A stretch of 55,725 nucleotides of DNA, the filler included, from Stramenopiles sp. TOSAG23-2 (lineage: Eukaryota): the NCBI GenBank assembly GCA_900128395.1. It is 3 parts of 3 records of this genome, joined end to end, with 100 filler letters (N's around TTAATTAATTAA, not from the genome) between each part and the next. Parts side by side here need not be neighbours in the genome. Positions count along the whole stretch, not along the records: positions 18,736 to 37,325 come from LT649604.1; 2 more parts are not named here. One strand, written 5' to 3'. Positions 8,897-44,782 of this stretch are shown here, piece after piece. The position numbers and the translations under genes are program-made. Every line of letters starts with the position of its first letter. The stretch's first letter is position 1. The notes under the pieces are model-generated. The model was not told where the DNA came from. It ran no database searches and saw only the letters and a program-made list of their open reading frames with translations.

Positions 8897-10990
8897 TTAA
8901 TATTCTTTTATATGTATATATATATATATATCCTCTGCAAGTCTTTTTTTCTTTTCATCAGTTACAGTAGCATTTTCATCTGGAAATTTCTCAGGCATGT
9001 TTCTCCACCAAAATTTTGGTGCAACATCATTACGCTCAATCATTTTCGCTTTATCTTTTGCAGCAGCGTCAATGTTAATTTTATATGCATTACGCTGTTC
9101 TTTTTTTAAACCAACGATATGTTTCACGCCTTCAACAGCAACAATAGCATTTGGTTTGAAAAATTGTTTGATTTTATCACCTTCTTTACCTAGTATACCA
9201 GCTGATAAGAACGAAAAAAATGCTATATCAAATAAATTCTTATATCGTTTCTTTGGTTTATTTACTAAATCAAGCATGGTCATATCCATCATAAATATTT
9301 TTGCACCTGATAATACTTCCATAATTTTCACAGCACGTTCAATAGCTGCACGTTCTTCAAATTCACGCCTTTGTTTTTCCATTTCAGTCTCTACTCGAAC
9401 TTCTTCTTCTTCTTTCTCTTCTACCTTTTCTACTACAGGTGGTTTCATTGGTTTATTGGTAACTTGTGGTGCAGGTGGTGCATTGTTGTCCTGCTCTGCA
9501 ACTGGCTTCTCTTCTTCCACAACTTCCATTTCATTTTCTTCATCATCCTCATCATCATCGGAATCATATTTACCATCACCTTGTGCTAATTGTTCTTCCA
9601 ATGATAACTCTTTCTTTTTCATTTTTTTCACAGCTGGTGTATCGATAGATTGTATTGGAGCTTCCTCGACTATTTCTTCACCTTTTTGTTCATCATCTTT
9701 TATCACTACTACATCTTCCGTTTGTTTCACTAAATTTGGCATTTCACCATCATCATTTTCTGCTTCTTTTGGATTCTCCTTCTTTGTATCATATACTTCT
9801 GTTGGTGTAATTTCAGATTGTTTATCTCCATCTACTTGATCTGCTTCATCGTTTTCATCTTCTTGTGCTGTTGGTTCATCTCCATTAATTTCTTTATCCG
9901 CCGATGTTGTTTCATTTCCACCTAAACCACTGTAAACTTCATGTTTTTTCTTCATTTTATAAATACAACCTGATTCAATTTCATATAGATATGATAGTAT
10001 ATTATGCACGGCAACTTCAACGGCATGATGGCGATGTTGCTCACTTCCAGAATCTTTATTGTAAATTTCAAATAATCCTTCGGCATTTTTATTTGGCATT
10101 TCTGAATCTATGCCAAATCCAATGAATGGACTTGTCACGATATCACACCAAAAACCACGTCGTAAATGGCTTAATCCACGTTCTTTACCTTCCGCATAAC
10201 TTGCCATGGTCCTGTTTGATTTGTTATATACTTGATCACCAAATTCATATGCTATACCACTTTGTCTCCATTCTCGATATTGTTTGATATGTATGACACT
10301 TGACAACGGGCGTACAATTTCTTGATAATCCCAATCAATGACGTTTCTACGGAAATCATACCGATCTTTGTATAACGCACGTAAGCGCTTATCACGCAAT
10401 TCTACCGTTTCAAATGGTATTTTATCATTCCAAGTTTGAAATACTTTTTGCAATTCATCGCGTGTTTTGTATTTTAATAAACTGAAATCAAATAAATCAT
10501 CCATACCACTTTCACCTTCACCATCACACAACAATTTTTCAAGTTCCTTTGATATTGTAGTGATGTATTGCTCCGTTCGTCGTTGCACCGTTGCGTTGCC
10601 ATATACTTCTAAAAATACATTGGTACGATAACGTATTGGTAGTTCCCAATCAGCTAAAATGCGAAATAATATTAAATGTCTAGCAAAACATTCAACGGTT
10701 TGTTCAGATATATAAAAATGTACTGGTCGTTTTGGATGTCTACGCCTTTGTGCCAATGTTTTGATAACATGACGCATATCCCCAGGTTGTGCTAACAACA
10801 CATTCAATGGTTCCTCCGTAGCATTTTTCTTCTTCTTTTCCTTTATTTTTTTCTTCTGTCCTTTTGTTAACGTAGCATTGCTATCACTAGTTGTTGATAT
10901 ACCATTTGCTTTATTATATACATCAATACAATCAAATGGTGGTGTGACACCCCACATGGATGATACACCCATTCCTTCACTAAATGACAT
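8897..10990 (-). CDS. DNAAF3: Dynein axonemal assembly factor 3 (PF22 family)
   Basis: N-terminal GMGVSSMWGVTP, GDMRHVIKT, E.FARHLIL, FLEVYGN, RD.RLR..Y..RYD.R...DWDY, RGFWCDIVTSPFIGFGI. First ATG is at 10990; long acidic insert. Confidence 0.88.
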   Translation of the reverse strand: MSFSEGMGVSSMWGVTPPFDCIDVYNKANGISTTSDSNATLTKGQKKKIKEKKKKNATEEPLNVLLAQPGDMRHVIKTLAQRRRHPKRPVHFYISEQTVECFARHLILFRILADWELPIRYRTNVFLEVYGNATVQRRTEQYITTISKELEKLLCDGEGESGMDDLFDFSLLKYKTRDELQKVFQTWNDKIPFETVELRDKRLRALYKDRYDFRRNVIDWDYQEIVRPLSSVIHIKQYREWRQSGIAYEFGDQVYNKSNRTMASYAEGKERGLSHLRRGFWCDIVTSPFIGFGIDSEMPNKNAEGLFEIYNKDSGSEQHRHHAVEVAVHNILSYLYEIESGCIYKMKKKHEVYSGLGGNETTSADKEINGDEPTAQEDENDEADQVDGDKQSEITPTEVYDTKKENPKEAENDDGEMPNLVKQTEDVVVIKDDEQKGEEIVEEAPIQSIDTPAVKKMKKKELSLEEQLAQGDGKYDSDDDEDDEENEMEVVEEEKPVAEQDNNAPPAPQVTNKPMKPPVVEKVEEKEEEEVRVETEMEKQRREFEERAAIERAVKIMEVLSGAKIFMMDMTMLDLVNKPKKRYKNLFDIAFFSFLSAGILGKEGDKIKQFFKPNAIVAVEGVKHIVGLKKEQRNAYKINIDAAAKDKAKMIERNDVAPKFWWRNMPEKFPDENATVTDEKKKRLAEDIYIYIHIKEY

Positions 10991-11986
10991 ACTACTTGTT
11001 TTTTCGGTTCTATTAAAAAAAAACAAAAACAAAAAAAAAATAATGTTGTATTATTGATATCTATATATCTATATATATTTAGTAATACGTCTTTCCCTGT
11101 TTCTGATTTTCAATTTGTATTTTCTATTTCTTCAAATTGTTTTCTATCCAATAGTATTTGTATTTATAATATTGAAATAGTCAAAATTCGAAATTGTAAA
11201 GAAGGTGGTGGTGTGGTGATGTTTTGAAAGTCGGTTTTAATGATCAAAATCATTAAAATATCAGATAAGTATGTAATATATCCGTAGAGGCACAAACATT
11301 TATGTTGTTGATTTATACATTATATGCAATTATATAATATCGAATATAGTAAAATAAAAATATACATATTTTATCCACTTATCATCTATCAAGTTTATCC
11401 CATCGAATTGGCAATAATTTGTAAATTTCAGTTGTTTTTCCACGACAAAAATTCCAATTGAAATATATATATTTTTTTTAACCACAACCATTTATAAATC
11501 ATTTACTATTTCTACTATATATAGAATATCGATTGAATACAATACTATAAAAACCCATTTCTTCGATTATTATTATTACATATATGTAAATATCCATATA
11601 ACCACATCACGTATGAATAAAATGAACACGATAAATTTTGAAAACTTTTTTGCACGAGAGGTGAAAAAACCAGTGGAATATCATAGGACCATGATCATGG
11701 TATTTGTACTGATAGTATACGAACGGAATCATTTTTCAAAAAAGATTTCTTCACAACAGCAGCACAGCATAGAATAATCACACCAATACAATTGAAATGG
11801 TGATTTTATTGAATTTAATGGTTATGAATTTGAATTAGTACTAAATATTGTTTGAATACTTTTGTATGTATCATCCTGGATAACAACAGAATATTTGTAG
11901 AGAACAAGAAAACAAAATAGTTATCACAGAAAAGAGATCGTATACCATCTAATATAATAATAATTGTAGTGTATAATATAATATAA

Positions 11987-13417
<1,431 letters not shown>

Positions 13418-18635: not shown

Positions 18636-18735
18636 NNNNNNNNNNNNNNNNNNNNNNNNNNNNNNNNNNNNNNNNNNNNTTAATTAATTAANNNNNNNNN
18701 NNNNNNNNNNNNNNNNNNNNNNNNNNNNNNNNNNN
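18636..18735. other. Artificial contig spacer (N run + TTAATTAATTAA + N run)
   Basis: Six-frame stop linker at 18680-18691 between N runs. Confidence 0.95.
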
Positions 18736-27937: not shown

Positions 27938-30900
27938 TCAAATATATCTTGTTATGCCTTTCATACTTTGAGCTAAAATGCTACCATCTGTATCTGCTGG
28001 CTTCACACTCTTTGCTTGGTCAAGGCGATTCGATATACTATGTGACTCTATTTGATGCAAAGCAATTTGCCGTTTTAATGCAAGAATTTGCATCTTTTGC
28101 TCATCTTGTTCATGCAGTTTATCCCTAACTTTAGCAAATTGTTCATCAATATTTTTAATTTTTTTATGCATTTGAATTCTCAATTTAGCTACCTGTTTTT
28201 GATTGTTTTTGATTCGTAGTTTAGCTGCATGAACCTCACTAGTTGTATATTTGATTTGATTGAACACATGCGTACGCTTCCATTTTTCAAAACCACGTTT
28301 CATCAAGTAGCGATATTTAGAGGCTGATCTACACATTGAATATACACGTTTTGACAACTGATTTTCATATTCCTTTTTAATATCACGTGCATTTATACTG
28401 ATCATAGTAGTATTTGATTTCCACTTCTGGAAAAGAAGATATACATTATCTACACCATTAAATTTATTGATGATTTTATTCAAATTTTCTAAGCGTTGCA
28501 TGGTAATTTGCTTCAATAGATGCTCATCCTTGTCAATATTTTTGTGGTAATGAACATCTTGTTGACCAAAATATACTTGCCTTCGTTTTTCCTGGTCTTC
28601 TAACGATGAGTTTAACTTTCTTTCCAGTCTCTCCTTAGAATATAGACGAAGGTAGTAAAATTGTGATGTCGCAATTTTACTCCATAAGAAAAATGCTCGT
28701 TTCAAGTTGATTCTATTCATTTTTCTCATAATTTTAATCATTTTCCATTGAAACGGGTATTTGTTCACATCGTTGCTTCCCTCATTATCTTTCCCTTCTC
28801 TAGCTTTGTCGGAATTAACATGGTTATCTGTAATTTGTGAATCATATTCATTTGCAGTTATTTCGTGGCTTCTTTTTGTCCTAGCATCATGCCATTGTAG
28901 TAAATCTTTTCCACTTTCAATTAATCCACGCTCCATTTTCCTGTACATATAATTTTCTATAGCAGGCTTTTCACATTCACTTAATATTTGATAGAAAAGT
29001 AATCTAGCTTGAAAATTCAAAGCGTTTCTCTCCTGGGTATTGCGAAAGGCCTCGTCTCTTTCAAAAGTATCATATAGGCTTTCTTTCGTTTTCCGTCGTC
29101 CTAGGTATGCACCATGCCAACGTCTTGGTGTCGTTCCTGTTTGTTTTGTCCATGCATAAATGTTGCTTTTATTATAATCATGGCGTAACGGAGGAAATTT
29201 CTGTTGAAATTCATTGGTCAAAATTGGGGGCGAAAACGCTAGTAATTTTGGCAGGCTAGTACATACAGTGCTTCGCAGCAACAGCAATTTTTTTTTCGAA
29301 TCGTATTTTTTCAAAAAAGGATTATCATGCCACATTAAATTTTGCAGCTTTGGCGTTCTGTTACGTAAAATTGAACATGCAGACAGAACTTGCTCGATTT
29401 CCCAAGTAAACTTATTACCAGATAAATCAAGTGTTTCAAGAATTTTAAATTCTATATTTGGGTTTGAATAAAAATTCATGGCTGCATCGAGACTGCCAGA
29501 AAGTTTGTTATTAGATACATCCAATACTCGTAGATTTGCGCAATAAAGTAATGGGAGTTTCTTAAGTCTATTAAATGACAAATCCAAATACATCAATGTT
29601 GTATTAAATATTGTTGACATTTGTACCATCAAATTTTTCGATAAACGTAAAATTTTTAATGACGATAAATGAGATAATGTTAAATATTTTGCTTTTTTTC
29701 TCAATGCAACATTGTTTTGGAAATCTTCACTAGTACCTTCAATTTTCATCGGAAAACATTCTATTTTATGACCACGTAAATCGATTTCTTCAACAGTTTG
29801 TAAATTTTTAATATGATTTGAGTAAGTTCGCGATTCTTCGGGTGTTGCAACAAGTGCCTTGGCGTTATGTAAAAATTGTTTTGATTGCCAATATGACGCA
29901 ACTTTACGAACATCTAATCTAATTAAAGCCGATGGTAAGCGTACAACGCGGTAGCCTTTGTAATTTTTTTTAAACTTTCTTTCATCAATGGTTTCATAAA
30001 ATAAAGGAACTGTTAATTCTTCTGTTTCTTGTTCTTGTTCGTCCTCATTATTTCTAATAGATTCAACAATACACTCATCAACAACATCTAAATATCCTTC
30101 CATACTAGCTTTCAATAGCTTTTTCTGTTTCAAATCTAAAAGAATTTCGCTTAAATTTTGTTTTTGTACATACACTTCGAGTGGCACAGTGACCGATGTC
30201 TTATTTGCACCCAGCTGCTTCATTAAATATGCTTCATAACACTCAGCAGCCATACCCCTCAACCATTCTAAAGACTTTAACCGGCCATAGGATTTTAGCT
30301 TTTCTTGGTAATTTTCAATTAATTGATTTTGCTTCTCCTTTGCTATGCCTGAATATTCTGGATCATATAATTTATAGGTTTTTCTTAAAATTTCTTTGTA
30401 ATTATTAATCGCATAGTCATAATATGTTGTAGCAACATCTTGGCTGTCTAAATTTAATATGTCTATGGTAGACTTGTTTGCCATTTTTTCATTATATTTT
30501 TTCCACAAAAATCCATTTAAGCAAAAATCTATTAAAACGGACAAAGGGTGGTTTATAACAAGTTTATTTGAACGTATCATCGCTGTCCCGTTTCTATTTG
30601 CGCGAACACCTTGCCTATCGCTAAATTCATAGACGGAATGTTTATGATAAACGCCAATACGGTTCCGTCCATTGAATACATTAAAGTTTCTCATATGACT
30701 TCGTATTTGGGCAGTTATTTTATCTGTAAGTCTCCAATGACCTTTTGTAAAGTTAAATTCACCACCACCCTGTGTTTCAAATCCAGGTTTGACAAGACTT
30801 GCATTGCCAATTTTCATATCCTCGGTAATGCTCTTCTTATCAGAAAACCATTCCATTTCTTCAGGCTTTAATGTTGAATTTAAAGTTTCCATTGATAAGT

Positions 30901-31858
30901 TTGTTGGCACGAGTTGGTAGAAATATCTACCGGGATATTTTCTTCTATGAGACTCTGCCGTATCAATTACTGCATGTTTGATTGTATCTGGAAATCCTTC
31001 TATCTTTCCTTTGCCATCTAAAACTAAAATAAGAAAATCGGCACCAAGTCTTGTTTCCCATGAGTACTTTGCTTTATCTGCTGAATAAATATATTTAATG
31101 TCTTCATTACTAGGATTGTTATGCTGTGACATGACTACTTCAATGAGCATATTGCCTTTGGCAAAATATGTAATGCCATCTAAATTAGCAATTTCTACCC
31201 ATTTGTTCTGTTTCATTTTTCGCAAGCCTTTCACGACTCTTGCATATGCGACTGCCATAGTTTCCTTGAAAGGAAGAAGTTTCGATTGTTCATCTTCTTC
31301 TATTTCTTCTTTTGAACATGGATGAAATAATATACGAAACACATAATTGTAATTTCTTGGCAATCGCCAACTTTTCTGATTATTATGATCCAGTTGTATG
31401 ACGCTTGATAATTCGTCCCGTTTTGAGCTTAATTTGGAATTAATGCTATTAAACGTATCTCGGGCATTTACTAGAAACTTGTTTTCCTCACTAGCAGCTG
31501 TCTCTTTATTTTTTAACAGTTTTAACACGTCACTCATTTTCCTTGTATACAATAATAGTCTTTCAGGTAACATTTCAATAGATGTGACCGGAACCTCCTT
31601 TTGAATGTATTTCTTTGAATGATCTGCGGAACTATTATTTATATCTTTAACAATTTCTTTTAATGAAAAATCTTCATTATCCATTTTGCTACAATCTATT
31701 AGGCAACAAGTTTCATTTTGTTCATCAACTTTGTATATAATACCTATCTTTTCATTTAGTTGTTGTTCACTTTTGTTGTTTTTATTCGTAGCATTATTAT
31801 TGTCTGGTGTATTTAGTAACACAACTCGTCCAAGGTGTAAATCCTTGACCTTTAACAT
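27938..31858 (-). CDS. Large leucine-rich-repeat protein with C-terminal coiled coil
   Basis: 1306-aa ORF; LRRs LKILRLSKN, LMYLDLSFNRL, LRVLDVSNNKL, LETLDLSGNKF, with cap LQNLMWHDNPF. Confidence 0.8.
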   Translation of the reverse strand: MLKVKDLHLGRVVLLNTPDNNNATNKNNKSEQQLNEKIGIIYKVDEQNETCCLIDCSKMDNEDFSLKEIVKDINNSSADHSKKYIQKEVPVTSIEMLPERLLLYTRKMSDVLKLLKNKETAASEENKFLVNARDTFNSINSKLSSKRDELSSVIQLDHNNQKSWRLPRNYNYVFRILFHPCSKEEIEEDEQSKLLPFKETMAVAYARVVKGLRKMKQNKWVEIANLDGITYFAKGNMLIEVVMSQHNNPSNEDIKYIYSADKAKYSWETRLGADFLILVLDGKGKIEGFPDTIKHAVIDTAESHRRKYPGRYFYQLVPTNLSMETLNSTLKPEEMEWFSDKKSITEDMKIGNASLVKPGFETQGGGEFNFTKGHWRLTDKITAQIRSHMRNFNVFNGRNRIGVYHKHSVYEFSDRQGVRANRNGTAMIRSNKLVINHPLSVLIDFCLNGFLWKKYNEKMANKSTIDILNLDSQDVATTYYDYAINNYKEILRKTYKLYDPEYSGIAKEKQNQLIENYQEKLKSYGRLKSLEWLRGMAAECYEAYLMKQLGANKTSVTVPLEVYVQKQNLSEILLDLKQKKLLKASMEGYLDVVDECIVESIRNNEDEQEQETEELTVPLFYETIDERKFKKNYKGYRVVRLPSALIRLDVRKVASYWQSKQFLHNAKALVATPEESRTYSNHIKNLQTVEEIDLRGHKIECFPMKIEGTSEDFQNNVALRKKAKYLTLSHLSSLKILRLSKNLMVQMSTIFNTTLMYLDLSFNRLKKLPLLYCANLRVLDVSNNKLSGSLDAAMNFYSNPNIEFKILETLDLSGNKFTWEIEQVLSACSILRNRTPKLQNLMWHDNPFLKKYDSKKKLLLLRSTVCTSLPKLLAFSPPILTNEFQQKFPPLRHDYNKSNIYAWTKQTGTTPRRWHGAYLGRRKTKESLYDTFERDEAFRNTQERNALNFQARLLFYQILSECEKPAIENYMYRKMERGLIESGKDLLQWHDARTKRSHEITANEYDSQITDNHVNSDKAREGKDNEGSNDVNKYPFQWKMIKIMRKMNRINLKRAFFLWSKIATSQFYYLRLYSKERLERKLNSSLEDQEKRRQVYFGQQDVHYHKNIDKDEHLLKQITMQRLENLNKIINKFNGVDNVYLLFQKWKSNTTMISINARDIKKEYENQLSKRVYSMCRSASKYRYLMKRGFEKWKRTHVFNQIKYTTSEVHAAKLRIKNNQKQVAKLRIQMHKKIKNIDEQFAKVRDKLHEQDEQKMQILALKRQIALHQIESHSISNRLDQAKSVKPADTDGSILAQSMKGITRYI

Positions 31859-32513: not shown

Positions 32514-35500
32514 ATGCTTTTATCATCTGGAATAACGTCTCCAAAATTTGCATCTGCAACTTTTAATGCAACTCAAAATAATAATAATAATTTCAATTAT
32601 GGACAAAAAACTTTGAGAGCAAAAGTATTAGAATTTTTCGAACAGCACGCGCCTGCAAAAACAGCAACTGTTGACATTCTTATTGAAAAGTTTAAAGATG
32701 AAGATGCAAGTGCCCTTATTTCCAAATTGGAAGCAAAATACAATGTAAAGATGCCTGCTGACAATAATAACAATACATCTGGTTCAAATGGCCTATTAAC
32801 TTTTGCACAACAATCCCCTTTGAGTTCATTTACCTTTAATAATAATACAAACATGTTAGCACCTGTAAGTTTTATTTCTTCGTTTGGTGGACAAACCAAA
32901 AAATTACCACCACAACCACCACCTTCAACAAATAATTCTTTACGAAGTAGATTGATTGATTTTTTCAAAAATAATAATGCAGAAGATAAAATTATTACCG
33001 TAGATATATTAATCGAGAAATATAAAGGGAACGAAAAGCAAATATTTCAAGCTTTAAAAACAAAATATGAACAAGGTAAAAATAATAATATTGCTAAATC
33101 GAACGCAATGGTTGCTGTAGAAAAAGACAGCAGCAATATTAATGCACCAGATTCAATACCTTTTTTCGACCTTGAGGGTAAGCGTGAATTGTTGACGAAG
33201 GAACGTGCTATTGAATTGTTTCAACCAATTACAAATGAAAATGCTCAGACCGTGGAAAAAATACGTTTGAGTAGTAAAAGCTTTGACGAGGCTTCAGCAA
33301 TAGTAGCTGCTGAGAAATTGAGGTTAATGAAAAATTTACGTTATGCTGATTTAAGTGATATTATTGCTGGGAGAGAAACGTCGATTGGCTTGAAAGTCCT
33401 TAGTACGTTTAGCGAGGCACTTGTCGAAACACCCCTTTTATGGGTTGATTTAAGCGACAATGCACTTGGTCCACGTGGAGTGAATGTGTGCGAACCTCTG
33501 TTGTCATCATCGGAAACACTTGAAGGAATCGCATTTCGTAATGATGGATTGTCAGCAGAAGCGTGTTATGAAATCAAGCGATTATTTTTGAAACTTTCAA
33601 GCCCTACGCGTTTGAAAAAATTGCATTTTTGGAATAACATGAGTGGGGATGGTGGTGGTATAGCGACTGCGGAATTGCTGTCGCAATCTCCATTTATGGA
33701 AGATTTTCAATTATCAACAACACGATGTGGGGAGGAAGGTGGAAATGCAATTTGCGCATCATTGAAAAATTGTCCAATGCTACAAAAAATAGATCTTAGT
33801 GACAATACATTTAATGTTAGCGGTGCAATTGAGCTTAGCAAAAGTTTAAGATCGTTACCCCGTATGGTAGTGTTAAATATTGGTGATTTGAATTTCAAAG
33901 ATGAAGGTATTGGCCATTTATTGAAGGCGTTGGTGCAACCAGTTTGTCCCGTTTTAGAAACATTGGATATATCATTAAATGACGTTTCTGTTGACTCATT
34001 GAAATATTTACCAGATGCATTGGCGGGGAAAAATCAATTTAAAAAGTTGATAGTTAAAGGCAATTTTGATCTTGGAAACAAAGGGTGTGTCATAATTGGT
34101 AAAACATTTAATGCGAATGGATTTTCTTCCAAAGTATTGGAAGCAATTGATTTAGAAGAATGTGATATACATGATCGTGGAGCAATATTTTTAGCAAATG
34201 AACTCGGTTCATCTATTGGTAATAAACACAGAAACTTTAAATTATTGAATTTAAAAGATAATAAAATATCAGATTCAGCTTGCAAAATGGTTCAAGCAAA
34301 AATGAGTACTGCAGAAATTAGCATTGAAGATCAAATGGAAGAGAGTGATTATGAAAGCGATGGGGATGACATCGATTTAAAATCTGTTTCAAAAACCATT
34401 GCAGAAATATATAGCCCAAAATCATCACCTAAAGCCGTAGTAGAAGAAATCGCAACTCCATTTTTATCGTTTGAAAATAGTAGCAGTAGTAGTAATGGAG
34501 GAAAAAGCTTAAATATCGATAGCAACGATCTATCCTTTCGCCAAAAATTACACAAATATTATAATAAAGTTGAACCGGGAAAACTTCATTCGATGGACAT
34601 TTTGCTAGAAAAGTATAACGGCAAGCAAACGAAACTAGTTATGGATCTTGAAAGCAAATATAAAGTTACGTTTAATTCTAAATCCTTGTTGGGCAACGGT
34701 GGCACCAATAATAATAATATAGGTAGAGGAAATCGCCCACGTATTGTACAATCGCTGGAAGAAGGAATGTACGAGGAGGTGAAGAAAGAACCACCGCAAC
34801 AGGAGGAATCTGTAAATCTAGTTTTTTTTAGAAAACAATTACTTCACTTTTATAAGAGATATGCACCGGAAAAAATGAATTCCATAGATATTCTATTAGC
34901 AAAATTTAAACGAAATGAGAAGCAATTAATTAAAACTTTGGAAAAGAAATACAATGTAAATTTTGCAAGGGACAAGGAAGCACCACCAGTAACAACAATG
35001 ACGACAACAAAAACAACATTGCGTGTGCAATTATTTAATTTTTTTAAAAAACATAATCCAAGAAACTTGGAAACTGTAGATATTTTACTTGAAAAGAACG
35101 ATTTAAGTGCAGATGAATTAATGAGTAAATTGAAATCAAAATATGGCATCAACAGCAACAAGAATGTTATGGACAATGCACCAATGGAAAATTTTTCCAC
35201 CAAAACATTGGTATTTGATCTCGGCAACGAAGGTCAGGACGAAACAATAACTCTTGATATGATACACGAGCGTCTTCAAGTTCATTCACAAACAAATCTG
35301 TCTGAGATTGGTTCAATTGTATTTAATGATAAAAGTTTCGATGTAGATGCAATGGACGTCTTGGCTAGCAAAGTTACAGAAATGGAAAATCTTCATACTG
35401 CCCAATTAAGAAATATGACACATGGCCGAGATCCAGCTGAAGGACTTGGCGCAAAAGCATGTAGTATTTTGATCTCAGCATTGACTTCAAAAAAATTACG

Positions 35501-37325
35501 ATCACTTGATATCAGTTCAAATATGTTGGGGGCAGCAGCCGGGGAAATATGGGGACCGCTTTTGACTTCACAGCCATATGTAGAAGAATTAATTTTCGAA
35601 GCCGATCACCGATTCAGGCATGGTTACAAGGGAGATGCATGCAACGATTTACTAAAAAACTTTGAGCCGAAAAATTTAAAAAAGCTAGTTGTGGTAAAAC
35701 ACGCTGATGATGAACCTTTAACAGGCGATGGCGTTGCAGCTATATTCAGTACAGTCATTGCAAACTCCACGTTGCTTGAGCATTTGTGTTATACAAAGAA
35801 TAAATGCGGTACTGATGGGGGGATACAAATCAGCGAAGCGTTGGGAAATTGTGGCAAAAACCTAACTTTTCTTGATTTAAGTGAAAATAATTTTCATGCA
35901 GAGGGTGGCGTTGCATTAGGAAATGCAATTTCCTCCATGCAAGCTTTACGAACATTAAAGCTTGACGACATGGGTTTGGAGGACGAAGGCGTGTCTTCAA
36001 TATTACATGAATTATGCGGTTCATGCTCTGATCTTGAAGTATTATCATTTAAATACAATGATGCAACAAGCGATGGTATTAAAAGTTTATACAATGCATT
36101 AGAAAACAAAGCAAAATTGTTTGAACTTCGTTTAGGTGGCAATCCTATCGAACGAGAGGGCTGCATAATTGTCCAAAAAGCTTTGCCTAGTTTAAATGGT
36201 TTGCAGGTATTGGATATGGAAGAATGTGGACTTCATAATAATTCTGCAATTGCTTTGTGTGATGATATTATTAAAATCTTCAAATCTATTTCAAAATTGG
36301 AGTTGGATTCAAACAATTTAACCGACACTGGTGTAAATGTTGTAACGAATAAGATTACGGAGGTATTCGGGGAAGAATCGTTAGGTGACTTTGAATGTAA
36401 TGACCCACCGGAAATGGAGGATGCGACAGATGAATTGGATAAAATACGAGACGACATTGTTAAGCAATATGGCACTGAAAAAAAAAGTAGTAACTCTTCG
36501 GAAGAAGAAAAAGTTAGTGAAAAAAATAATAGTGGCAGTGGTGGTATTTTTGCTAATTTTGCACCAAAACCTGGTTCATGGAAATGTCCTGTTTGCATGA
36601 TTAATAATAATAAGGAAGCTAATAAATGTGTATCATGCGAAGCACCAAATCCTAATGCTGAAAGTATGCCGACTGATACAAGCAAATCTAACGGTTTTGG
36701 AACGGGTGGTGATGTTGGTGGTACGAAATTTACATTTGGTAGTAGTAATAGTAGCACATCAGCGATAGAAACAAAGGTATCATTAAAGTCGGTAAACAAT
36801 TCAGGTGGTGATGTTGGTGGTACGAAAGTTACATTTGGTAGTAGTAATAGTAGCACGCCAAAGATAGCAGGAGAAAACGGCAGCTTATCCTTTGGTTCAC
36901 CACCAAAAGTTGCAGAAGGTGGATTTTCGTTTGGCACAGCAACGGGTGGATTTGGGCAACCAACAGGTTCGACAATTACATTTGGTGCACCACAACCATC
37001 AACAACTAATACACCTGTATTTGGTGGTGGTGATAATACACAGTCAACAGGTGGATTTGGGCAAATAGAAGGTTCGACAATTACATTTGGTGCACCACAA
37101 CCACAACCAAGTGGTGATAATACACAGTCAACAGGTGGATTTGGGCAAACAGCAGGTTCGACAATTACATTTGGTGCACCACAACCATCAACAACTAATA
37201 CACCTGTATTTGGTGGTGGTGATAATACACAGTCAACAGGTGGATTTGGGCAAACAGCAGGTTCGACAATTACATTTGGTGCACCACAACCATCAACAAC
37301 TAATACACCTGTATTTGGTGGCGGT
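32514..37325 (+). CDS. RanGAP-like protein with two RanGAP LRR domains, five small helical repeats, a RanBP2-type zinc finger and FG repeats (3' truncated)
   Basis: DLSDIIAGR, DLSDNALGPRG, NDGLS, NNMSGDGG, DLSDNTF (RanGAP1/Rna1-type motifs); a second degenerate LRR block; GSWKCPVCMINN...KCVSCEAP; FG-rich tail. Confidence 0.85.
36945..37325 (+). repeat. Coding tandem repeat (~120-bp unit) encoding FG-nucleoporin-like repeats
   Basis: GGFGQxxGSTITFGAPQPSTTNTPVFGGGDNTQST repeated about four times up to the contig end. Confidence 0.9.
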
Positions 37326-37425
37326 NNNNNNNNNNNNNNNNNNNNNNNNNNNNNNNNNNNNNNNNNNNNTTAATTAATTAANNNNNNNNNNNNNNNNNNN
37401 NNNNNNNNNNNNNNNNNNNNNNNNN
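37326..37425. other. Artificial contig spacer
   Basis: N run + TTAATTAATTAA (37370-37381) + N run. Confidence 0.95.
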
Positions 37426-37845: not shown

Positions 37846-37987
37846 TCTAAAGGAAAGAAGTACATGAATATTTTGATCTAAATATGTTTTAAATGAAACT
37901 GACAAGGTAACGAATTTCTAAAGGAAAGAAGTACATGAATATTTTGATCTAAATATGTTTTAAATGAAACTGACAAGGTAACGAATT
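37846..37987. repeat. 71-bp tandem duplication
   Basis: tctaaaggaaagaagtacatg... at 37846 and 37917. Confidence 0.9.
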
Positions 37988-38436
37988 TTTTTCAAAATGG
38001 TGATTTTTTTCGAAATTAGTATGGACATAGGCTGGACTAAAAATGTAAAATCTGAAAATTATAAAAGGTTCTTTATTGTATATAAAAACACATAACTTTA
38101 TCAAAATAAGTATCTACAATGATTTTATATATGTTTGGTAATAAACGTTCGAGATATCTCAATATTCTTGTATCTAATTCATACTTGAATAACCGTTAAA
38201 AGTTGAAAAAAACGCGTAACCCTATAGCTGTAACTCTATTTGATAGGTGATTTTTACTTGTAGTGTCGGCTCTGTCTTACACTAATTAGTACAAAATTAT
38301 TATACTTATTTTTAATAGGTTTCAATATTCCAAAAATGATATTTACAATTTATGTAAAAAATGACATTTCCATCTAAAATATGATATTTTGTATGATTTC
38401 ATATTTGGTGGTATTTATATGTTATTTTATGAAAAG

Positions 38437-40309: not shown

Positions 40310-43300
40310 TTATTTTTTCGTACTTTTATGGCTACTCTCCTCAGATTTCCTTTTTGATTTCTTTTTCTTCTTTTTTTTTCTTTTTCCTTTCGAGTCTGTA
40401 CTTCCTCTACTACTTCTACTACCTCTACTTCCCTTGCTATCTCTACTTCCTTTGCTGCCTTTAGAATTAACACTACCAGTCTCACTACCATCATTACTAA
40501 CATTGTCATCATTTGTTTTGGTCTCATCGCCGAAGTCTTGCTTCTTTCCTTCATTTTCACCATTCTTTTCCTCGTTTTTCCTTTCCTCTTTCCTTGCCGT
40601 TCCAAATAATCTTGAAAAAAAAGATCTTTTCTTTTTTTTCTTAGATCCATCTTCATCATTTAACACAGTTTCTCCTTCTTTCCCCTCGTCATTATTACTA
40701 TGAGGACTAAATAAACCAGAAGTAGAAATAGACCCAACTTTGCCAACAATTCCTTGCGCAGCTTTATTTTCTTCAGCTTCTTTCAAAAGTCTCTGCACTT
40801 CCTCTATCTTTTCCCCATCATCACTCTCCTCATCCATGTCATCCTCCAACATTAGTTCTAAATCCGCTGCATTCATTTCGTCAACATTCATGATCATTTT
40901 TTCTTGGTCTTCTTCTAAAAGTTTTTCTTCAATAGTCTTCTGCTCATCTTCATCATCTTCATCGTCATCTTCTTCATATTCTTGTTTTTGTGTTGCACTC
41001 GATCCAAACAGGCTTTTCTTCTTCTTCTTTTTATGGTGCCATTTTACTGGTTTTACTGGATCTTCAAGAATTAAATGTGCTATTTCTTTCAATCGCAAGA
41101 CCCTACCACCTGGTGCACGTTTTACATAGCCTCTGCATTTTTCAACTGGCCATGAATGACGCAAAACACACAACTCACACTTCACTCCACCCCGACAAGT
41201 CAGACATTTGACTTTTGCTGATATATTTTCTCCATATTCATCGTAATGCCCATAATATTCTTTATATTGGCGTAAGATATGAGCATTGTAAGGATCTGCT
41301 TGCACAGCACGTTTGTAACACAGCTCAACTTCGTCCGGGTCTTTATCAACATCGATTACCACTGCTGTATTCTGGGCACCACAATAAACCCTGTCCGCCG
41401 GACCTACACTTTTTGCAGTACCCCATGTTCCGAAAATTTGACATTGGGCAAAATGTAAATAATTTGTACTCTCTAACTGCACGCGGACGTATCTGCCAAC
41501 TGTATTCACAGGCAAAGACCATGTCGTACGCCTTTTCACTGCTGTGAATTTTTTCCTTGCAACAGCCATATTAAAAGAGCCAGACAAATTGTCTCCACCT
41601 GTACCCTTTTCAAAAGGAGACGCACTGATCATAATCCAACATGGAAAAAGCCTCCTAGAATAATAATCTGGCCCCAAGGAAGGGTCAGCAGGCATATCCT
41701 CTCGATTCCAAAGTACAATCGTATGTACAACAGCTAGACGACCCATATCTACCTCCCACCATGGATTTTGATCCATTTGAGTATGTACACATTTATCTTC
41801 ACCATCTCCATTATTGTCACCGTTATTAGCGAGAATCGCTTCTCTTTTATTATACACACTACTTAATTCAGATGGTCTATTCAACCCTAAACTTTCTGAA
41901 GATACAAATAGACACTTTATAACAGTTGGCTCGTAATTAAAACGGCAACTCGTAGGATGTCCACTACAACCATGATTGTTACTACCCCAAGTATATACTT
42001 CACCATAGACAGTTACTGCCGCGGAATGATTATTGCCACAGGCAAGCGACTTGACTGGTTTATCTTTCATTTTATTAATTACCTCAAATCTTGGACGAAA
42101 TTTACCAATCGCAGCAGCCGCTCCACATTGTAACAACTCACCCCCAGTATATTCAATGATTTGAGTGTGCCCAGTACCCCTTGTTCTTTTTTTAACAACT
42201 AAAGATATAACTGTGTGAGCCGATCCGCATGCTACCAAAGTAACCATTACATCCATCCCGACTAAATATTCAACTAAAGTTGGACGAGGATGAATTTTTT
42301 GACCATCGCCGCTACCTAAGCCGAGCCGACCTCCGTCACCACTACCCCAAACAAACAATTCTCCGCTCATACAAACGGCAGCGGAGTGAGAGTTTCCACA
42401 CGATACAGTGCGAACTCTTCTATCACCCGGCAAAGGCAAGGGTATAGGATATTGTACATAAGCTTCAAATTCTTGTGCAATTGGACCAATACCAAGTTTT
42501 CCGCTAGCAACACCACCCCATACATATAACTGATCACCTTTTACAATCGCAATATTGTGTGAATATCCAGCGGCAATTTTTTTCGCACCCCGACCTTTTA
42601 TTGCCTCAACCAACGTTGGTACTGTCCTTTCTACACGTGCATTTGGGTCTACGTCATCAGAGGGTATACCTAGACGACCAAAAGTGCTGTCCCCCCAAGC
42701 ATATAAGTCACCTGCATGATGTGCAGCTATTACATGATGAGCCCCAACACCTATAGTCTTTACACGACCACCCATTGGTGTAATAGTTGGGCCTGGTCCA
42801 CGCTCCGTTATACCACCAACTACAACTCGTCCACCACCTCTTTCTGTTCTATCAGCATAATCCACATCTCCCTCCGCCTCTCTTTGCCTCCATAGTTTAT
42901 AGCGCCTCTCTAATTTTAAATATTCACGTTTTTCGCGTTGATATTTACGTCTAGCATGCCTTTCCCGTTCTTCTTGCTGTTTAATTCCTAAAACCTCCCA
43001 AACTTCTTTAATTTCTTCTGTAAATTTCGTAGCTTTTTCTCTATTACCACGCTTCCTAAAGTCGTAAGCTTCAAATTCAATTGTCTTCAATCGCTTTTGC
43101 TCACTTCCCCCAATCATCTTCAGCTCAAATTTTAAATCGTCGTATATTGCAAAACACAATTGTTCATTGTTTTTATTCTTACCTAATTTTGCATGATTTC
43201 GAACTTCTAACGTGAACAACAAAACCTTTTGCTCCAACAACGGCAAAATATTGTCACGCATATATTTCACTTTATCATTCACATTTCCCTGAGGTGGTTT

Positions 43301-44782
43301 AAAAACACCGTAGTATTCGCTTACAATTTTTAATTTTTTAAATATTAAATCTTCTTTAGAAAGTTTCTCATCTTCTTCAAGTTTTTCCAATCGCCTTGCT
43401 TCTCTCGCACGCTCCCGAACAATCTCTTGTGCTAACCAAGGAAGACGGCCTTTTATACCCAGCAAAACCTGACTTCTGTGTGTCATTTCACCCCTATTCT
43501 CCCTTGCCCACCTACTTCCAGGTAATATTTTTTCCCACAAATGTTTCCTACCACCCCAACCAAAAATTTCCCCGAATTTATTACATGCAAATGCTGTATT
43601 TTCGCCAACCCCAACCTCTGTGACACCTCTACCCCATAATGTTGAGCAGTGCGTTGCACAATATACATTATCAAAGTAACTAGCGTCTGGATCCATTTCA
43701 TTGTTTTTCTTTTTTTCTTTCGTTGATCCGTATACATGTAACGCACCTTGCTTTGCTAATTCGTCCGAGATCCTAGCTACTTGAAAATCTACTGGTGGGC
43801 CATTTGGTGCTACTCGTTTCGTAAACGTTTCGTCTACCTCTTTAAAACCATCAAAAACTTGACCGGGTCTAACAGCACCATGCAAAAATTGACCACGCGT
43901 TCCACTTCCAAATAAATAGACTTGCCCCGCAACATCTAACGCATTTCCTAACTCTATATGGGCTCGTTTACGTGCGGCTGCTACATCTACTTTCTTCTGG
44001 GCTAAATTTATCATGTGTGTTCTGAATGCTTCTGCTGTCGCAATGGCATGCGCTTCTTGATCTTCTTCTGCCTCTACTACTTCTGCCAACTTTTCCTTTA
44101 ATGCCCACGGGGTCATGAACAAGGGAAGCTCAACATCCCGTTTCTCTAGCTCTTTACGAGGGTTTACAATTTCTAACCAAATTTTTTTAAATTCGTGGTA
44201 TTCTACGGATCCGCTACCATCAGCATCTGCCTTATGAAATAAATACTCTAGTTTCGCATCATCTACGGGCATTTCCATATATTCTAGCGCCAAAGAAAAC
44301 TCATCCTCATCCAGGTTTCCAGATCCATCTTCATCGTACATTTCAAATGCATCTTTCGGCGATAATATAGACGAAGGTTTGAATCCAACACTGTTACCAC
44401 TATTAGGATCAGTCATGAATAGAGCAACTTTTAATTCATCCAGTCCAATTTCACCAGATCCATCTGTATCACATTGCCGAAAATATTTCAATGCTTTTGC
44501 TTCACTTAGTTTAACATTAAGTTCCGGCAACATAGTCTTGAATTCCTCAAAATCAATCGCACCTGAATTGTCTTCATCAAATCTTTTAAAAACTTCTTCC
44601 GGTGTTGCCTTTCGCCAATCTACTTTATCTTTGTTCTTGTTCTCACCATCCTCATCTTCATCATCATCATCCTTCTCTTTCTCTTCTATCTTGTATTCTT
44701 CATCAGATTCTTCGTCACTATCATCGTTTTTCTTTCTAGACTCATTTTCCAATTTGTCAATCACATCCTCCTCGTCAGACAT
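40310..44782 (-). CDS. EF-hand + RCC1-repeat + fucolectin/F5-8C-like domain protein
   Basis: Four EF loops (DEDNSGAIDFEE, DTDGSGEIGLDE, DEDGSGNLDEDE, DADGSGSVEYHE); RCC1 repeats (LYAWGDSTFGRLG, LFVWGSGDGGRLG, VYTWGSNNHG); HTQ...PWWEVDMG...LWNRED...GRYVRVQL. Confidence 0.87.
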   Translation of the reverse strand: MSDEEDVIDKLENESRKKNDDSDEESDEEYKIEEKEKDDDDEDEDGENKNKDKVDWRKATPEEVFKRFDEDNSGAIDFEEFKTMLPELNVKLSEAKALKYFRQCDTDGSGEIGLDELKVALFMTDPNSGNSVGFKPSSILSPKDAFEMYDEDGSGNLDEDEFSLALEYMEMPVDDAKLEYLFHKADADGSGSVEYHEFKKIWLEIVNPRKELEKRDVELPLFMTPWALKEKLAEVVEAEEDQEAHAIATAEAFRTHMINLAQKKVDVAAARKRAHIELGNALDVAGQVYLFGSGTRGQFLHGAVRPGQVFDGFKEVDETFTKRVAPNGPPVDFQVARISDELAKQGALHVYGSTKEKKKNNEMDPDASYFDNVYCATHCSTLWGRGVTEVGVGENTAFACNKFGEIFGWGGRKHLWEKILPGSRWARENRGEMTHRSQVLLGIKGRLPWLAQEIVRERAREARRLEKLEEDEKLSKEDLIFKKLKIVSEYYGVFKPPQGNVNDKVKYMRDNILPLLEQKVLLFTLEVRNHAKLGKNKNNEQLCFAIYDDLKFELKMIGGSEQKRLKTIEFEAYDFRKRGNREKATKFTEEIKEVWEVLGIKQQEERERHARRKYQREKREYLKLERRYKLWRQREAEGDVDYADRTERGGGRVVVGGITERGPGPTITPMGGRVKTIGVGAHHVIAAHHAGDLYAWGDSTFGRLGIPSDDVDPNARVERTVPTLVEAIKGRGAKKIAAGYSHNIAIVKGDQLYVWGGVASGKLGIGPIAQEFEAYVQYPIPLPLPGDRRVRTVSCGNSHSAAVCMSGELFVWGSGDGGRLGLGSGDGQKIHPRPTLVEYLVGMDVMVTLVACGSAHTVISLVVKKRTRGTGHTQIIEYTGGELLQCGAAAAIGKFRPRFEVINKMKDKPVKSLACGNNHSAAVTVYGEVYTWGSNNHGCSGHPTSCRFNYEPTVIKCLFVSSESLGLNRPSELSSVYNKREAILANNGDNNGDGEDKCVHTQMDQNPWWEVDMGRLAVVHTIVLWNREDMPADPSLGPDYYSRRLFPCWIMISASPFEKGTGGDNLSGSFNMAVARKKFTAVKRRTTWSLPVNTVGRYVRVQLESTNYLHFAQCQIFGTWGTAKSVGPADRVYCGAQNTAVVIDVDKDPDEVELCYKRAVQADPYNAHILRQYKEYYGHYDEYGENISAKVKCLTCRGGVKCELCVLRHSWPVEKCRGYVKRAPGGRVLRLKEIAHLILEDPVKPVKWHHKKKKKKSLFGSSATQKQEYEEDDDEDDEDEQKTIEEKLLEEDQEKMIMNVDEMNAADLELMLEDDMDEESDDGEKIEEVQRLLKEAEENKAAQGIVGKVGSISTSGLFSPHSNNDEGKEGETVLNDEDGSKKKKKRSFFSRLFGTARKEERKNEEKNGENEGKKQDFGDETKTNDDNVSNDGSETGSVNSKGSKGSRDSKGSRGSRSSRGSTDSKGKRKKKKKKKSKRKSEESSHKSTKK

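What the first reader, a model, noticed from the sequence alone, without database searches (positions are those of the whole stretch)
32514..37325. RanGAP-nucleoporin fusion: double RanGAP LRR + RanBP2 zinc finger + FG repeats in one ORF
Seen: one uninterrupted ORF with a canonical RanGAP LRR (~33160-34330), a second LRR block (~35200-36420), a W-x-C-xx-C...N...C-xx-C finger (~36573-36655) and an FG-repeat tail. Known: animals tether RanGAP1 to the pore through SUMO and RanBP2/Nup358, which itself has such zinc fingers and FG repeats; plants use a WPP domain; yeast Rna1 is soluble. Inference: this is another tethering solution, with the GAP built directly into an FG nucleoporin and functionally mimicking the Nup358-RanGAP1 complex.
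Basis: partly seen in the sequence, partly recalled or inferred. Interest (0 to 1): 0.8.

Follow-up and report, generated by a model that had tools for sequence, protein, structure and literature searches.

The report
RanGAP fused to pore-type finger, FG repeats
An unnamed, probably stramenopile protist encodes one giant protein that joins a working-looking Ran GTPase activator, a degenerate second copy of it, a nuclear-pore-type zinc finger and FG repeats, which may be a new way of holding this enzyme at the nuclear pore.

Summary
Window 32514-37325 (+) is one stop-free, intron-free frame of 1604 aa. It contains a canonical RanGAP LRR domain, a second RanGAP-derived LRR domain, one RanBP2-type zinc finger and an FG-rich tail. 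The frame is incomplete: it stops at a contig end inside a near-perfect 105-nt tandem repeat. Full-length relatives (1795-2125 aa) add about 230-400 residues, ending in a conserved helical domain with no known relatives.

The architecture is not an assembly artefact. It recurs in four other full-length assemblies of the same or a sister species and in a 60%-identical orthologue.

- LRR2 has lost the catalytic-site Asn and 26 of 66 RanGAP-invariant positions. It is probably not a second GAP.
- Five copies of a 47-aa three-helix module were overlooked.
- There is no Ran-binding domain, WPP domain or SUMO-acceptor domain.

The finger belongs to the Nup153/Nup358 class. An oomycete FG protein combines the same finger and the same helical module.

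Pore localisation is inferred, not shown. No transcript reads could be laid because the tool was unreachable, and no genome was available to look for a stand-alone RanGAP. My searches found no description in print. Verdict: new variant of a known kind, moderately high interest.

The parts
32514..37325 (+). Open frame of 1604 codons (P0001). This is the 5' ~85% of a gene whose relatives encode 1795-2125 aa. It starts at an ATG shared with the relatives and has no stop, because the contig ends here.
32607..32750 (+). Three-helix module copy 1 (aa 32-79)
   Evidence: HMM built from the copies, domain E 8.5e-25; AF2 model of the module has three helices, pLDDT 85
32937..33077 (+). Three-helix module copy 2 (aa 142-188)
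33153..34328 (+). LRR1: canonical RanGAP domain (aa 214-605). It keeps the Arg aligned with Rna1p Arg74 (R287) and the Asn aligned with Rna1p Asn131 (N343). It keeps 57 of 66 RanGAP-invariant columns and is 82% identical to P0003.
34329..34388 (+). Acidic stretch directly after LRR1 (aa 606-625; 9 Asp/Glu in the first 16 residues), placed like the acidic tail of RanGAPs
   Evidence: read from the translation; stand-alone and oomycete RanGAPs show the same placement
34533..34673 (+). Three-helix module copy 3 (aa 674-720)
34821..34964 (+). Three-helix module copy 4 (aa 770-817)
35013..35156 (+). Three-helix module copy 5 (aa 834-881)
35190..36413 (+). LRR2: RanGAP-derived but degenerate LRR domain (aa 893-1300). 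It is collinear with LRR1 and keeps the Arg74-equivalent. It has lost the Asn131-equivalent (now Arg, next to an insertion) and 26 of 66 invariant columns. It is 69% identical to P0003.
36414..36518 (+). Acidic / Ser-Glu-rich linker after LRR2 (aa 1301-1335)
   Evidence: translation
36567..36653 (+). One RanBP2-type zinc finger of the Nup153/Nup358 class (aa 1352-1380; W-x-C-x2-C-x10-C-x2-C)
36693..37325 (+). FG-repeat tail (aa 1394-1604): 16 FG in FxFG / GFG contexts. The last ~390 nt form 84/105/189-nt tandem repeats.
37326..37425 (.). Artificial contig joint (N44 + TTAATTAATTAA + N44). The sequence beyond it belongs to another contig.

Best explanation
This is a real single gene of an unnamed, probably stramenopile, protist. 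It encodes a modular Ran-cycle protein.

Domain order:
- two three-helix modules
- an active-looking RanGAP domain with an acidic tail
- three more three-helix modules
- a degenerate RanGAP paralogue
- one Nup153/Nup358-class zinc finger
- FxFG/GFG repeats
- beyond the window: a low-complexity stretch, a further helical stretch and a conserved, lineage-restricted helical end domain

Most likely mechanism (inferred):
- The FG repeats, and possibly the end domain, hold the protein at or in the nuclear pore by binding transport receptors or pore components.
- The finger binds Ran.
- LRR1 stimulates GTP hydrolysis on Ran as export complexes emerge.
- On this reading, RanGAP tethering is solved by covalent fusion rather than by SUMO/RanBP2 (animals) or WPP (plants).
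- LRR2 is probably not catalytic. It is conserved, so it most likely serves as a binding or scaffolding surface.

Shown: the domain identities, the conservation of the architecture, and the loss of invariant residues in LRR2.
Inferred: GAP activity, Ran binding by the finger, pore localisation, and which face of the pore.
For: One gene, not an artefact:
- A search over the whole length found 6 proteins at E<=0.001 among 8000 candidates. Two clusters have the full architecture: P0002 (97% id, 1834 aa) and P0003 (60% id, 2125 aa).
- The P0002 cluster holds three more full-length versions from separate contigs (P0009, P0011, P0017). These differ mainly in FG-repeat number.
- Fragments P0040 (50% id) and P0019 (75% id) show the same module-RanGAP order in more distant relatives.

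LRR1 is a RanGAP:
- PDB matches.
- 57 of 66 invariant columns kept, including R287 and N343.
- 42-46% identity to stand-alone RanGAPs.

LRR2 is RanGAP-derived:
- E 5e-46 against LRR1.
- Sister to LRR1 in the 60-row tree, SH-aLRT 95.
- Inside an 11-row RanGAP clade at 98/97 in the 33-row careful tree.

Finger class: the top 25 of 58 PDB hits are Nup358/Nup153 fingers.

FG tail:
- FG density of 16 in 210 aa.
- P0003 keeps 17 FG although its spacers differ; the tail is 39% identical, against 82% in LRR1.

Link to pore-type proteins: a Phytophthora lilii protein (P0006) combines two very similar fingers, 56 FG and three copies of the same three-helix module.

Independent fusion of the same parts: P0069 has five RanBP2-type fingers followed by a RanGAP domain.

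Literature: RanGAP anchoring differs between lineages (passages of PMC11825100).
Against: - No localisation, activity or binding data exist.
- No reads or transcripts could be laid: the look-up of sequencing runs was unreachable 8 times (and the first try).
- FG-like repeats and RanBP2-type fingers also occur outside pore proteins.
- In animals the most similar finger-plus-FxFG protein, Nup153, sits on the nuclear side, where a GAP would be harmful. The side of the pore therefore cannot be read from homology.
- There is no Ran-binding domain, which Nup358 uses together with RanGAP1 (Pfam reported none).
- The Pfam score of the finger is only 1 bit above cutoff.
- The sister relation of LRR1 and LRR2 is unresolved in the careful tree.
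- Whether the organism also has an ordinary soluble RanGAP is unknown, because no genome is held.
Confidence: 0.55

Rival explanations
1. The protein is a soluble cytoplasmic RanGAP scaffold, not a stable pore component. The finger and FG repeats capture Ran and receptor complexes anywhere in the cytosol, or only transiently at the pore. The three-helix modules and the end domain dock it to some other structure.
For: - Yeast RanGAP works without pore anchoring (passages of PMC11825100).
- The end domain has no similarity to any known pore-anchoring fold: Foldseek found no hit at E<=0.001 and the best VIA Z was 4.8.
- The three-helix module matches only generic bundles, best Z 5.2.
- The FG tail is short (16 FG in the window, 11-17 in relatives) compared with the 56 FG of P0006.
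Against: - The finger is specifically of the Nup153/Nup358 class.
- The same finger, FG repeats and helical module co-occur in an oomycete FG-rich protein.
- FG number is kept although the spacers have turned over.
Confidence: 0.25
2. The protein acts mainly outside interphase transport, for example at the spindle, at kinetochores or at the nuclear face of the pore. It could also be a Ran-binding regulator in which neither LRR domain is an efficient GAP.
For: - LRR2 has lost invariant residues.
- Nup153-type fingers sit on the nuclear side in animals (recalled knowledge; Nup153 candidates in chromalveolates are tabulated in PMC2951903).
- Animal RanGAP1-RanBP2 also acts at kinetochores (title and abstract listing of PMC4695854).
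Against: - LRR1 keeps 57 of 66 invariant columns, including both residues aligned with Rna1p Arg74 and Asn131, plus the acidic tail.
- LRR1 is the most conserved part of the protein, 82% between orthologues. This fits a working enzyme.
Confidence: 0.12
3. The architecture is an artefact: a chimeric assembly or a read-through of neighbouring genes.
For: - The window is a stitched pseudomolecule, and the gene touches a contig end inside a repeat.
- Read support was not obtained.
Against: - All junctions lie inside one contig and one frame.
- The same order of all parts is found in a 60%-identical orthologue and in four other full-length assemblies.
- The linkers are conserved at 24-51%, below the domains, as expected for real linkers.
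Confidence: 0.03

Closest known systems
RanGAP (S. pombe Rna1p, human RanGAP1)
   Same: LRR1 aligns over the whole LRR crescent. It keeps the residues aligned with Rna1p Arg74 and Asn131 and is followed by an acidic stretch.
   Different: The protein is three to four times longer. It has a second, degenerate copy of the domain, five three-helix modules, a zinc finger and FG repeats. Pfam reported no animal C-terminal SUMO-acceptor domain.
Animal Nup358/RanBP2 with SUMO-RanGAP1
   Same: It brings together a RanGAP, Nup358/Nup153-class zinc finger(s) and FG repeats.
   Different: The parts are in one polypeptide instead of a SUMO-dependent complex. There is one finger instead of eight. Pfam reported no Ran-binding domains, no cyclophilin domain and no recognisable N-terminal solenoid. 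Nup358 itself is tabulated only for opisthokonts (PMC2951903 tables).
Nup153-type nucleoporins and the Phytophthora lilii protein P0006
   Same: The same kind of finger with similar flanks, followed by FxFG repeats. P0006 also carries three copies of the three-helix module.
   Different: P0006 has no RanGAP domain. The present protein lacks the Nup153 family domain (PF08604), which was seen only in P0005.
Plant RanGAP1/2 (WPP domain)
   Same: A RanGAP that carries its own targeting module on the same chain. Plant RanGAPs are among the named homologues.
   Different: Pfam reported no WPP domain (PF13943) here, although it is precomputed for the plant hits.
Oomycete tandem RanGAPs (P0020, P0022-P0028; about 830-870 aa)
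   Same: Two RanGAP LRR domains in one chain, each followed by an acidic tail.
   Different: The duplication is separate: the oomycete N and C halves group inside the oomycete clade. For the two C halves tabulated (P0020_C, P0022_C), most invariant columns are kept, including the Asn. These proteins have no finger, no FG repeats and no three-helix modules.
P0069 (680 aa, unnamed GC-rich organism)
   Same: RanBP2-type fingers fused to a RanGAP domain.
   Different: It has five fingers at the N-terminus, with a different residue pattern after the second Cys. It has only 2 FG and a single LRR domain.

Membership tests
RanGAP (Rna1/RanGAP1) | LRR crescent collinear with solved RanGAPs | tested here: met
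   LRR1: human RanGAP1 residues 35-365 at E 4.5e-24 and Rna1p residues 5-301 at E 1.5e-15. LRR2: collinear with LRR1, but against the PDB ribonuclease inhibitor ranks first (9.5e-16), with Rna1p at 2e-10 over the C-terminal half only.
RanGAP (Rna1/RanGAP1) | Arg aligned with Rna1p Arg74 (its role is recalled from the literature, not from a call) | tested here: met
   R287 in LRR1, by counting along the alignment. LRR2 also keeps the Gly-Arg pair.
RanGAP (Rna1/RanGAP1) | Asn aligned with Rna1p Asn131, which supports the catalytic Gln of Ran (its role is recalled) | tested here: met
   LRR1: N343, in a column that is Asn in 46 of 47 reference domains. LRR2 does not meet it: Arg in both orthologues, next to an insertion.
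RanGAP (Rna1/RanGAP1) | Family-wide invariant positions | tested here: met
   LRR1 keeps 57 of 66 columns that are >=85% one residue in 47 reference domains. LRR2 keeps 40 of 66.
RanGAP (Rna1/RanGAP1) | Stimulates GTP hydrolysis by Ran | not testable with these tools
   Needs a biochemical assay. No cognate Ran sequence was available for modelling.
Nup358/RanBP2 | Ran-binding domains (RanBD) | tested here: not met
   Pfam scans of P0001 at E<=1 and of P0002/P0003 at E<=0.1 list no Ran_BP1 family.
Nup358/RanBP2 | Cluster of RanBP2-type zinc fingers | tested here: inconclusive
   There is one finger only, of the right class. Human RanBP2 shows eight matched stretches.
Nup358/RanBP2 | Cyclophilin domain and SUMO E3 region | tested here: not met
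   No such Pfam family is listed. The E3 region has no model that I tested.
Nup153 | Nup153 family domain (PF08604) | tested here: not met
   Not listed for P0001-P0003. It is precomputed only for P0005.
FG nucleoporin (generic) | Clustered FG repeats in a low-complexity region | tested here: met
   16 FG in aa 1395-1604; 17 in the tail of P0003 with different spacers.
FG nucleoporin (generic) | Resides in the nuclear pore complex | not testable with these tools
   Needs localisation or proteomics.
Plant-type RanGAP | WPP domain (PF13943) | tested here: not met
   Not listed, but precomputed for the plant hits.

The most novel reading that the evidence does not exclude
This is a single-chain functional analogue of the animal RanBP2-RanGAP1 assembly, and it arose independently in a stramenopile lineage.
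- An active GAP (LRR1) is paired with a catalytically dead RanGAP paralogue (LRR2) that holds or senses Ran-GTP or receptor complexes.
- A Ran-binding finger and FG repeats recruit export complexes.
- A previously unseen helical end domain, together with the three-helix modules, forms a new pore-anchoring system shared with an oomycete FG nucleoporin.
Probability: 0.3. Interest if true: 0.8.

Novelty: new variant of a known kind. Interest (0 to 1): 0.6.

Why it matters
Where RanGAP sits decides where Ran-GTP is hydrolysed, and so gives nuclear transport its direction. Known lineages solve the tethering differently: SUMO/RanBP2 in animals, WPP in plants, none in yeasts, unknown in trypanosomes (PMC11825100).

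A direct fusion of RanGAP to pore-type modules would be a further, independent solution in a supergroup whose pore is barely studied. It also offers three things to follow up:
- a natural pseudo-GAP domain (LRR2);
- a 47-aa three-helix module and an end domain with no known relatives, whose partners can be sought;
- recurrent independent joining of RanGAP with RanBP2-type fingers (P0069) and tandem RanGAPs in oomycetes. Both suggest selection for multivalent Ran handling.

Tried and rejected
- No whole genome is held for the window. A stand-alone RanGAP, RanBP1 or the missing 3' end could therefore not be sought.
- The look-up of sequencing runs was unreachable at every try. Read laying was never used, so there is no read or transcript evidence.
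- The C-terminal part of the gene is not elsewhere in the window (tblastn).
- The ESM Atlas gave no usable hit for the end domain or the three-helix region.
- End domain: the deep search found only 4 proteins among 1.84 billion representatives, all apparent orthologue fragments. Foldseek against the PDB gave nothing at E<=0.001. VIA wide gave a best Z of 4.8, which is within noise for helical models.
- Three-helix module: Foldseek gave a single row at E 7.7. VIA gave a best Z of 5.2, with RFC lid, CUE and viral P-protein bundles tied. No assignment was made, and no other ORF of the window carries the module.
- A literature search for the Rna1p residue roles found nothing usable. Those roles are recalled.
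- Complex prediction was not used: no cognate Ran sequence was in hand, and no binding claim rests on it.
- I considered Naegleria or another intron-poor, AT-rich flagellate as the source and rejected it. The close relatives carry no NCBI/UniProt names, and the named RuvBL2 neighbours are mostly stramenopiles.
Full report
**What is in the sequence**

Window 32514-37325 (+) is a single frame of 1604 codons with no stop and no sign of introns. It is not a complete gene.
- Positions 37326-37425 are an artificial joint: 44 N, TTAATTAATTAA, 44 N. A second joint lies at 18636-18735, so the window is three contigs stitched together.
- The contig carrying the gene stops inside a 105-nt tandem repeat with 99% matches. 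That explains the assembly break.
- The window is AT-rich (GC 0.28-0.42) and packed with long intron-free ORFs.

**Is it one gene?**

A whole-length search found 6 proteins at E<=0.001 among 8000 scored candidates. Two clusters share the entire architecture:
- P0002: 97% identity, 1834 aa.
- P0003: 60% identity, 2125 aa, labelled 'Ran GTPase-activating protein 1' by its source.

The P0002 cluster has 11 members.
- Three of them are further full-length versions from separate contigs: P0009 (1840 aa), P0011 (1795 aa) and P0017 (1874 aa). They differ mostly in the number of FG repeats.
- Three of the four full-length contigs are 5.5-5.9 kb, about the size of the coding region plus short ends. This suggests transcript assemblies, but that is my inference only.

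Two fragments show the same module-RanGAP-module-LRR2 order in more distant relatives: P0040 (50% identity) and P0019 (75% identity).

A chimeric assembly is therefore very unlikely. Direct read or transcript evidence could not be obtained: the look-up of sequencing runs was unreachable on every try.

**Source organism**

No genome is held. I used the RuvBL2 gene at 11999-13417 as a marker.
- Its closest relatives (85-99% identity) are unnamed.
- Among the 120 listed rows, those with an organism name at about 77-81% identity are mostly stramenopiles: Aphanomyces, Saprolegnia, Phytophthora, Peronosclerospora, Heterosigma, Hondaea, Nannochloropsis, Ochromonas, Chromulina and Ascophyllum.
- Exceptions are one Symbiodinium row, one Palpitomonas row, and two longer proteins labelled Quercus and Ixodes at 69-71%.

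The RanGAP tree also puts oomycetes in the nearest named clade. I take the source to be an unnamed stramenopile. This is an inference.

**LRR1**

Residues 214-605 align over the full crescent with solved RanGAPs.
- Human RanGAP1 matches at E 4.5e-24 and Rna1p at E 1.5e-15. These are the top three of the 25 PDB sequences found.
- Counting along that alignment, Rna1p Arg74 corresponds to R287 and Asn131 to N343. The roles of these residues are recalled from the Rna1p-Ran structure work, not taken from a call; one search found nothing usable.

I tested family-wide conservation on an alignment of 60 RanGAP-type domains.
- 47 of the 60 served as references. Excluded were the four domains of this protein and P0003, eight oomycete C halves and the outgroup.
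- Before the alignment I dropped fragments, redundant cluster members and matches covering fewer than 300 query residues.
- 66 columns are at least 85% one residue among the references. LRR1 keeps 57 of them.

An acidic stretch follows directly (aa 606-625). LRR1 is the most conserved part between orthologues, at 82%.

**LRR2**

Residues 893-1300 are collinear with LRR1 from the N-terminal cap to the last repeat: 30% identity over 418 aa, E 5e-46.

Against the PDB, however, ribonuclease inhibitor ranks first (9.5e-16). Rna1p (2e-10) and RanGAP1 (7.3e-10) rank 11th to 14th of 30 and cover only part of the domain.

Two trees place LRR2 within RanGAPs:
- 60-row quick tree, rooted on an NLR-like LRR: LRR1 and LRR2 of the two species are sisters (SH-aLRT 95). 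LRR2 sits on a long stem of 2.88 changes per site.
- 33-row careful tree (27 long or near-duplicate rows left out): the sister relation is unresolved, but LRR2 lies inside an 11-row RanGAP clade supported at 98/97. It is far from the oomycete C halves.

So LRR2 is a lineage-specific duplicate of the RanGAP domain, separate from the oomycete duplication.

LRR2 keeps only 40 of the 66 invariant columns.
- It has lost the Asn131 equivalent, which is Arg in both species.
- It has lost the Asn-Asn-Met motif, two Asp near the Arg74 motif and other polar positions.
- It is still 69% identical between species, well above the linkers at 24-51%.

I read it as a conserved, non-catalytic derivative.

**Zinc finger and FG tail**

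- Pfam Zn_ribbon_RanBP passes narrowly, 28.0 bits against a cutoff of 27.
- The 50-aa segment searched alone gives 58 PDB sequences at E<=1. The best 25 are all Nup358/RanBP2 or Nup153 fingers (3.9e-43 to 1.1e-4). Other classes start at 4.9e-4: YAF2, RBM10, FUS, RYBP, TAB2/3, TRABID, HOIP.
- After the second Cys the finger has Met-Ile-x-Asn where the animal fingers have Leu-Val-x-Asn. That this motif contacts Ran is recalled, not from a call.
- The tail holds 16 FG in 210 residues, against 2 in the preceding 1394.
- P0003 has 17 FG with quite different, charged spacers. The tail is 39% identical.

Three-helix module:
- Five copies of a 47-48-aa module flank the LRR domains (HMM domain E-values 1e-24 to 1e-26).
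- AlphaFold2 on the five copies predicts a three-helix bundle with pLDDT 85.
- Fold searches give only generic bundles.
- P0003 has six copies.
- The Phytophthora lilii protein P0006 has three copies, together with two very similar fingers and 56 FG.

C-terminal region, present only in the full-length relatives:
- It has a low-complexity stretch, a further helical stretch and a highly conserved final domain of about 140 aa.
- A search of 1.84 billion representatives found only 4 relatives, all apparent fragments of orthologues.
- Its model is helical (pLDDT 69 overall, 81-93 in the core).
- It has no significant fold match.

**Comparison with known systems**

- Pfam lists no Ran-binding domain, WPP domain, RanGAP1 C-domain, cyclophilin domain or Nup153 domain. 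The protein is a RanGAP family member through LRR1, but it is not a member of Nup358, Nup153 or plant-type RanGAP.
- Nup358 is tabulated only for opisthokonts, while Nup153 candidates are tabulated for chromalveolates (tables of PMC2951903).
- Passages of PMC11825100 state that RanGAP anchoring differs among lineages.
- Six full-text searches returned no description of a RanGAP fused to FG repeats, nor of stramenopile RanGAP architecture.

**Mechanism and verdict**

The best-supported reading is a pore-associated RanGAP.
- LRR1 supplies catalysis.
- The finger supplies Ran binding.
- The FG repeats supply receptor or pore affinity.
- The end domain or the three-helix modules supply anchoring.
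- LRR2 has a non-catalytic role.

The domain identities and their conservation are shown. Activity, binding, localisation and the side of the pore are inferred. The main rival is a soluble cytoplasmic scaffold.

It is a new variant of a known kind.

Noticed in passing
window 18636-18735 and 37326-37425: Two identical artificial joints (N44 + TTAATTAATTAA + N44). The window is a pseudomolecule of three contigs, so gene neighbourhood across these points means nothing.
   Followed up: yes
P0020, P0022-P0028 (proteins): Oomycete RanGAPs of about 830-870 aa are tandem double RanGAPs, each half with its own acidic tail. For the two C halves tabulated (P0020_C, P0022_C), most invariant residues are kept. 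The duplication is separate from the one in this gene.
   Followed up: partly
P0069: A 680-aa protein from a GC-rich unnamed organism has five N-terminal RanBP2-type zinc fingers followed by a RanGAP domain. This is an independent joining of the same two parts.
   Followed up: partly
P0006, Phytophthora lilii unnamed protein: A 1994-aa protein with two Nup153-like fingers, 56 FG, EF-hand-type regions and three copies of the 47-aa three-helix module. It is a likely oomycete FG nucleoporin sharing modules with this gene.
   Followed up: partly
window 40310-44782 (-): A 1490-aa ORF with EF-hands, RCC1-like repeats and a galactose-binding-like domain. It lies on a different contig, in the most GC-rich part of the window (0.39-0.42). 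RCC1-like domains include the Ran exchange factor, but nothing ties this one to Ran.
   Followed up: no
window about 37846-37990: An AT-rich non-coding stretch after the joint holds a roughly 72-nt segment repeated twice head to tail.
   Followed up: no
window 27938-31858 (-): The divergently oriented neighbour is a 1306-aa ORF with a short block of classical LRRs (Pfam LRR_4, LRR_1). It is unrelated to the RanGAP-type LRRs.
   Followed up: no
window 8897-11032 (-) and 8997-9839 (+): A DUF4470/DUF4471 protein gene has a 280-aa ORF on the opposite strand. This is probably a chance antisense frame.
   Followed up: no
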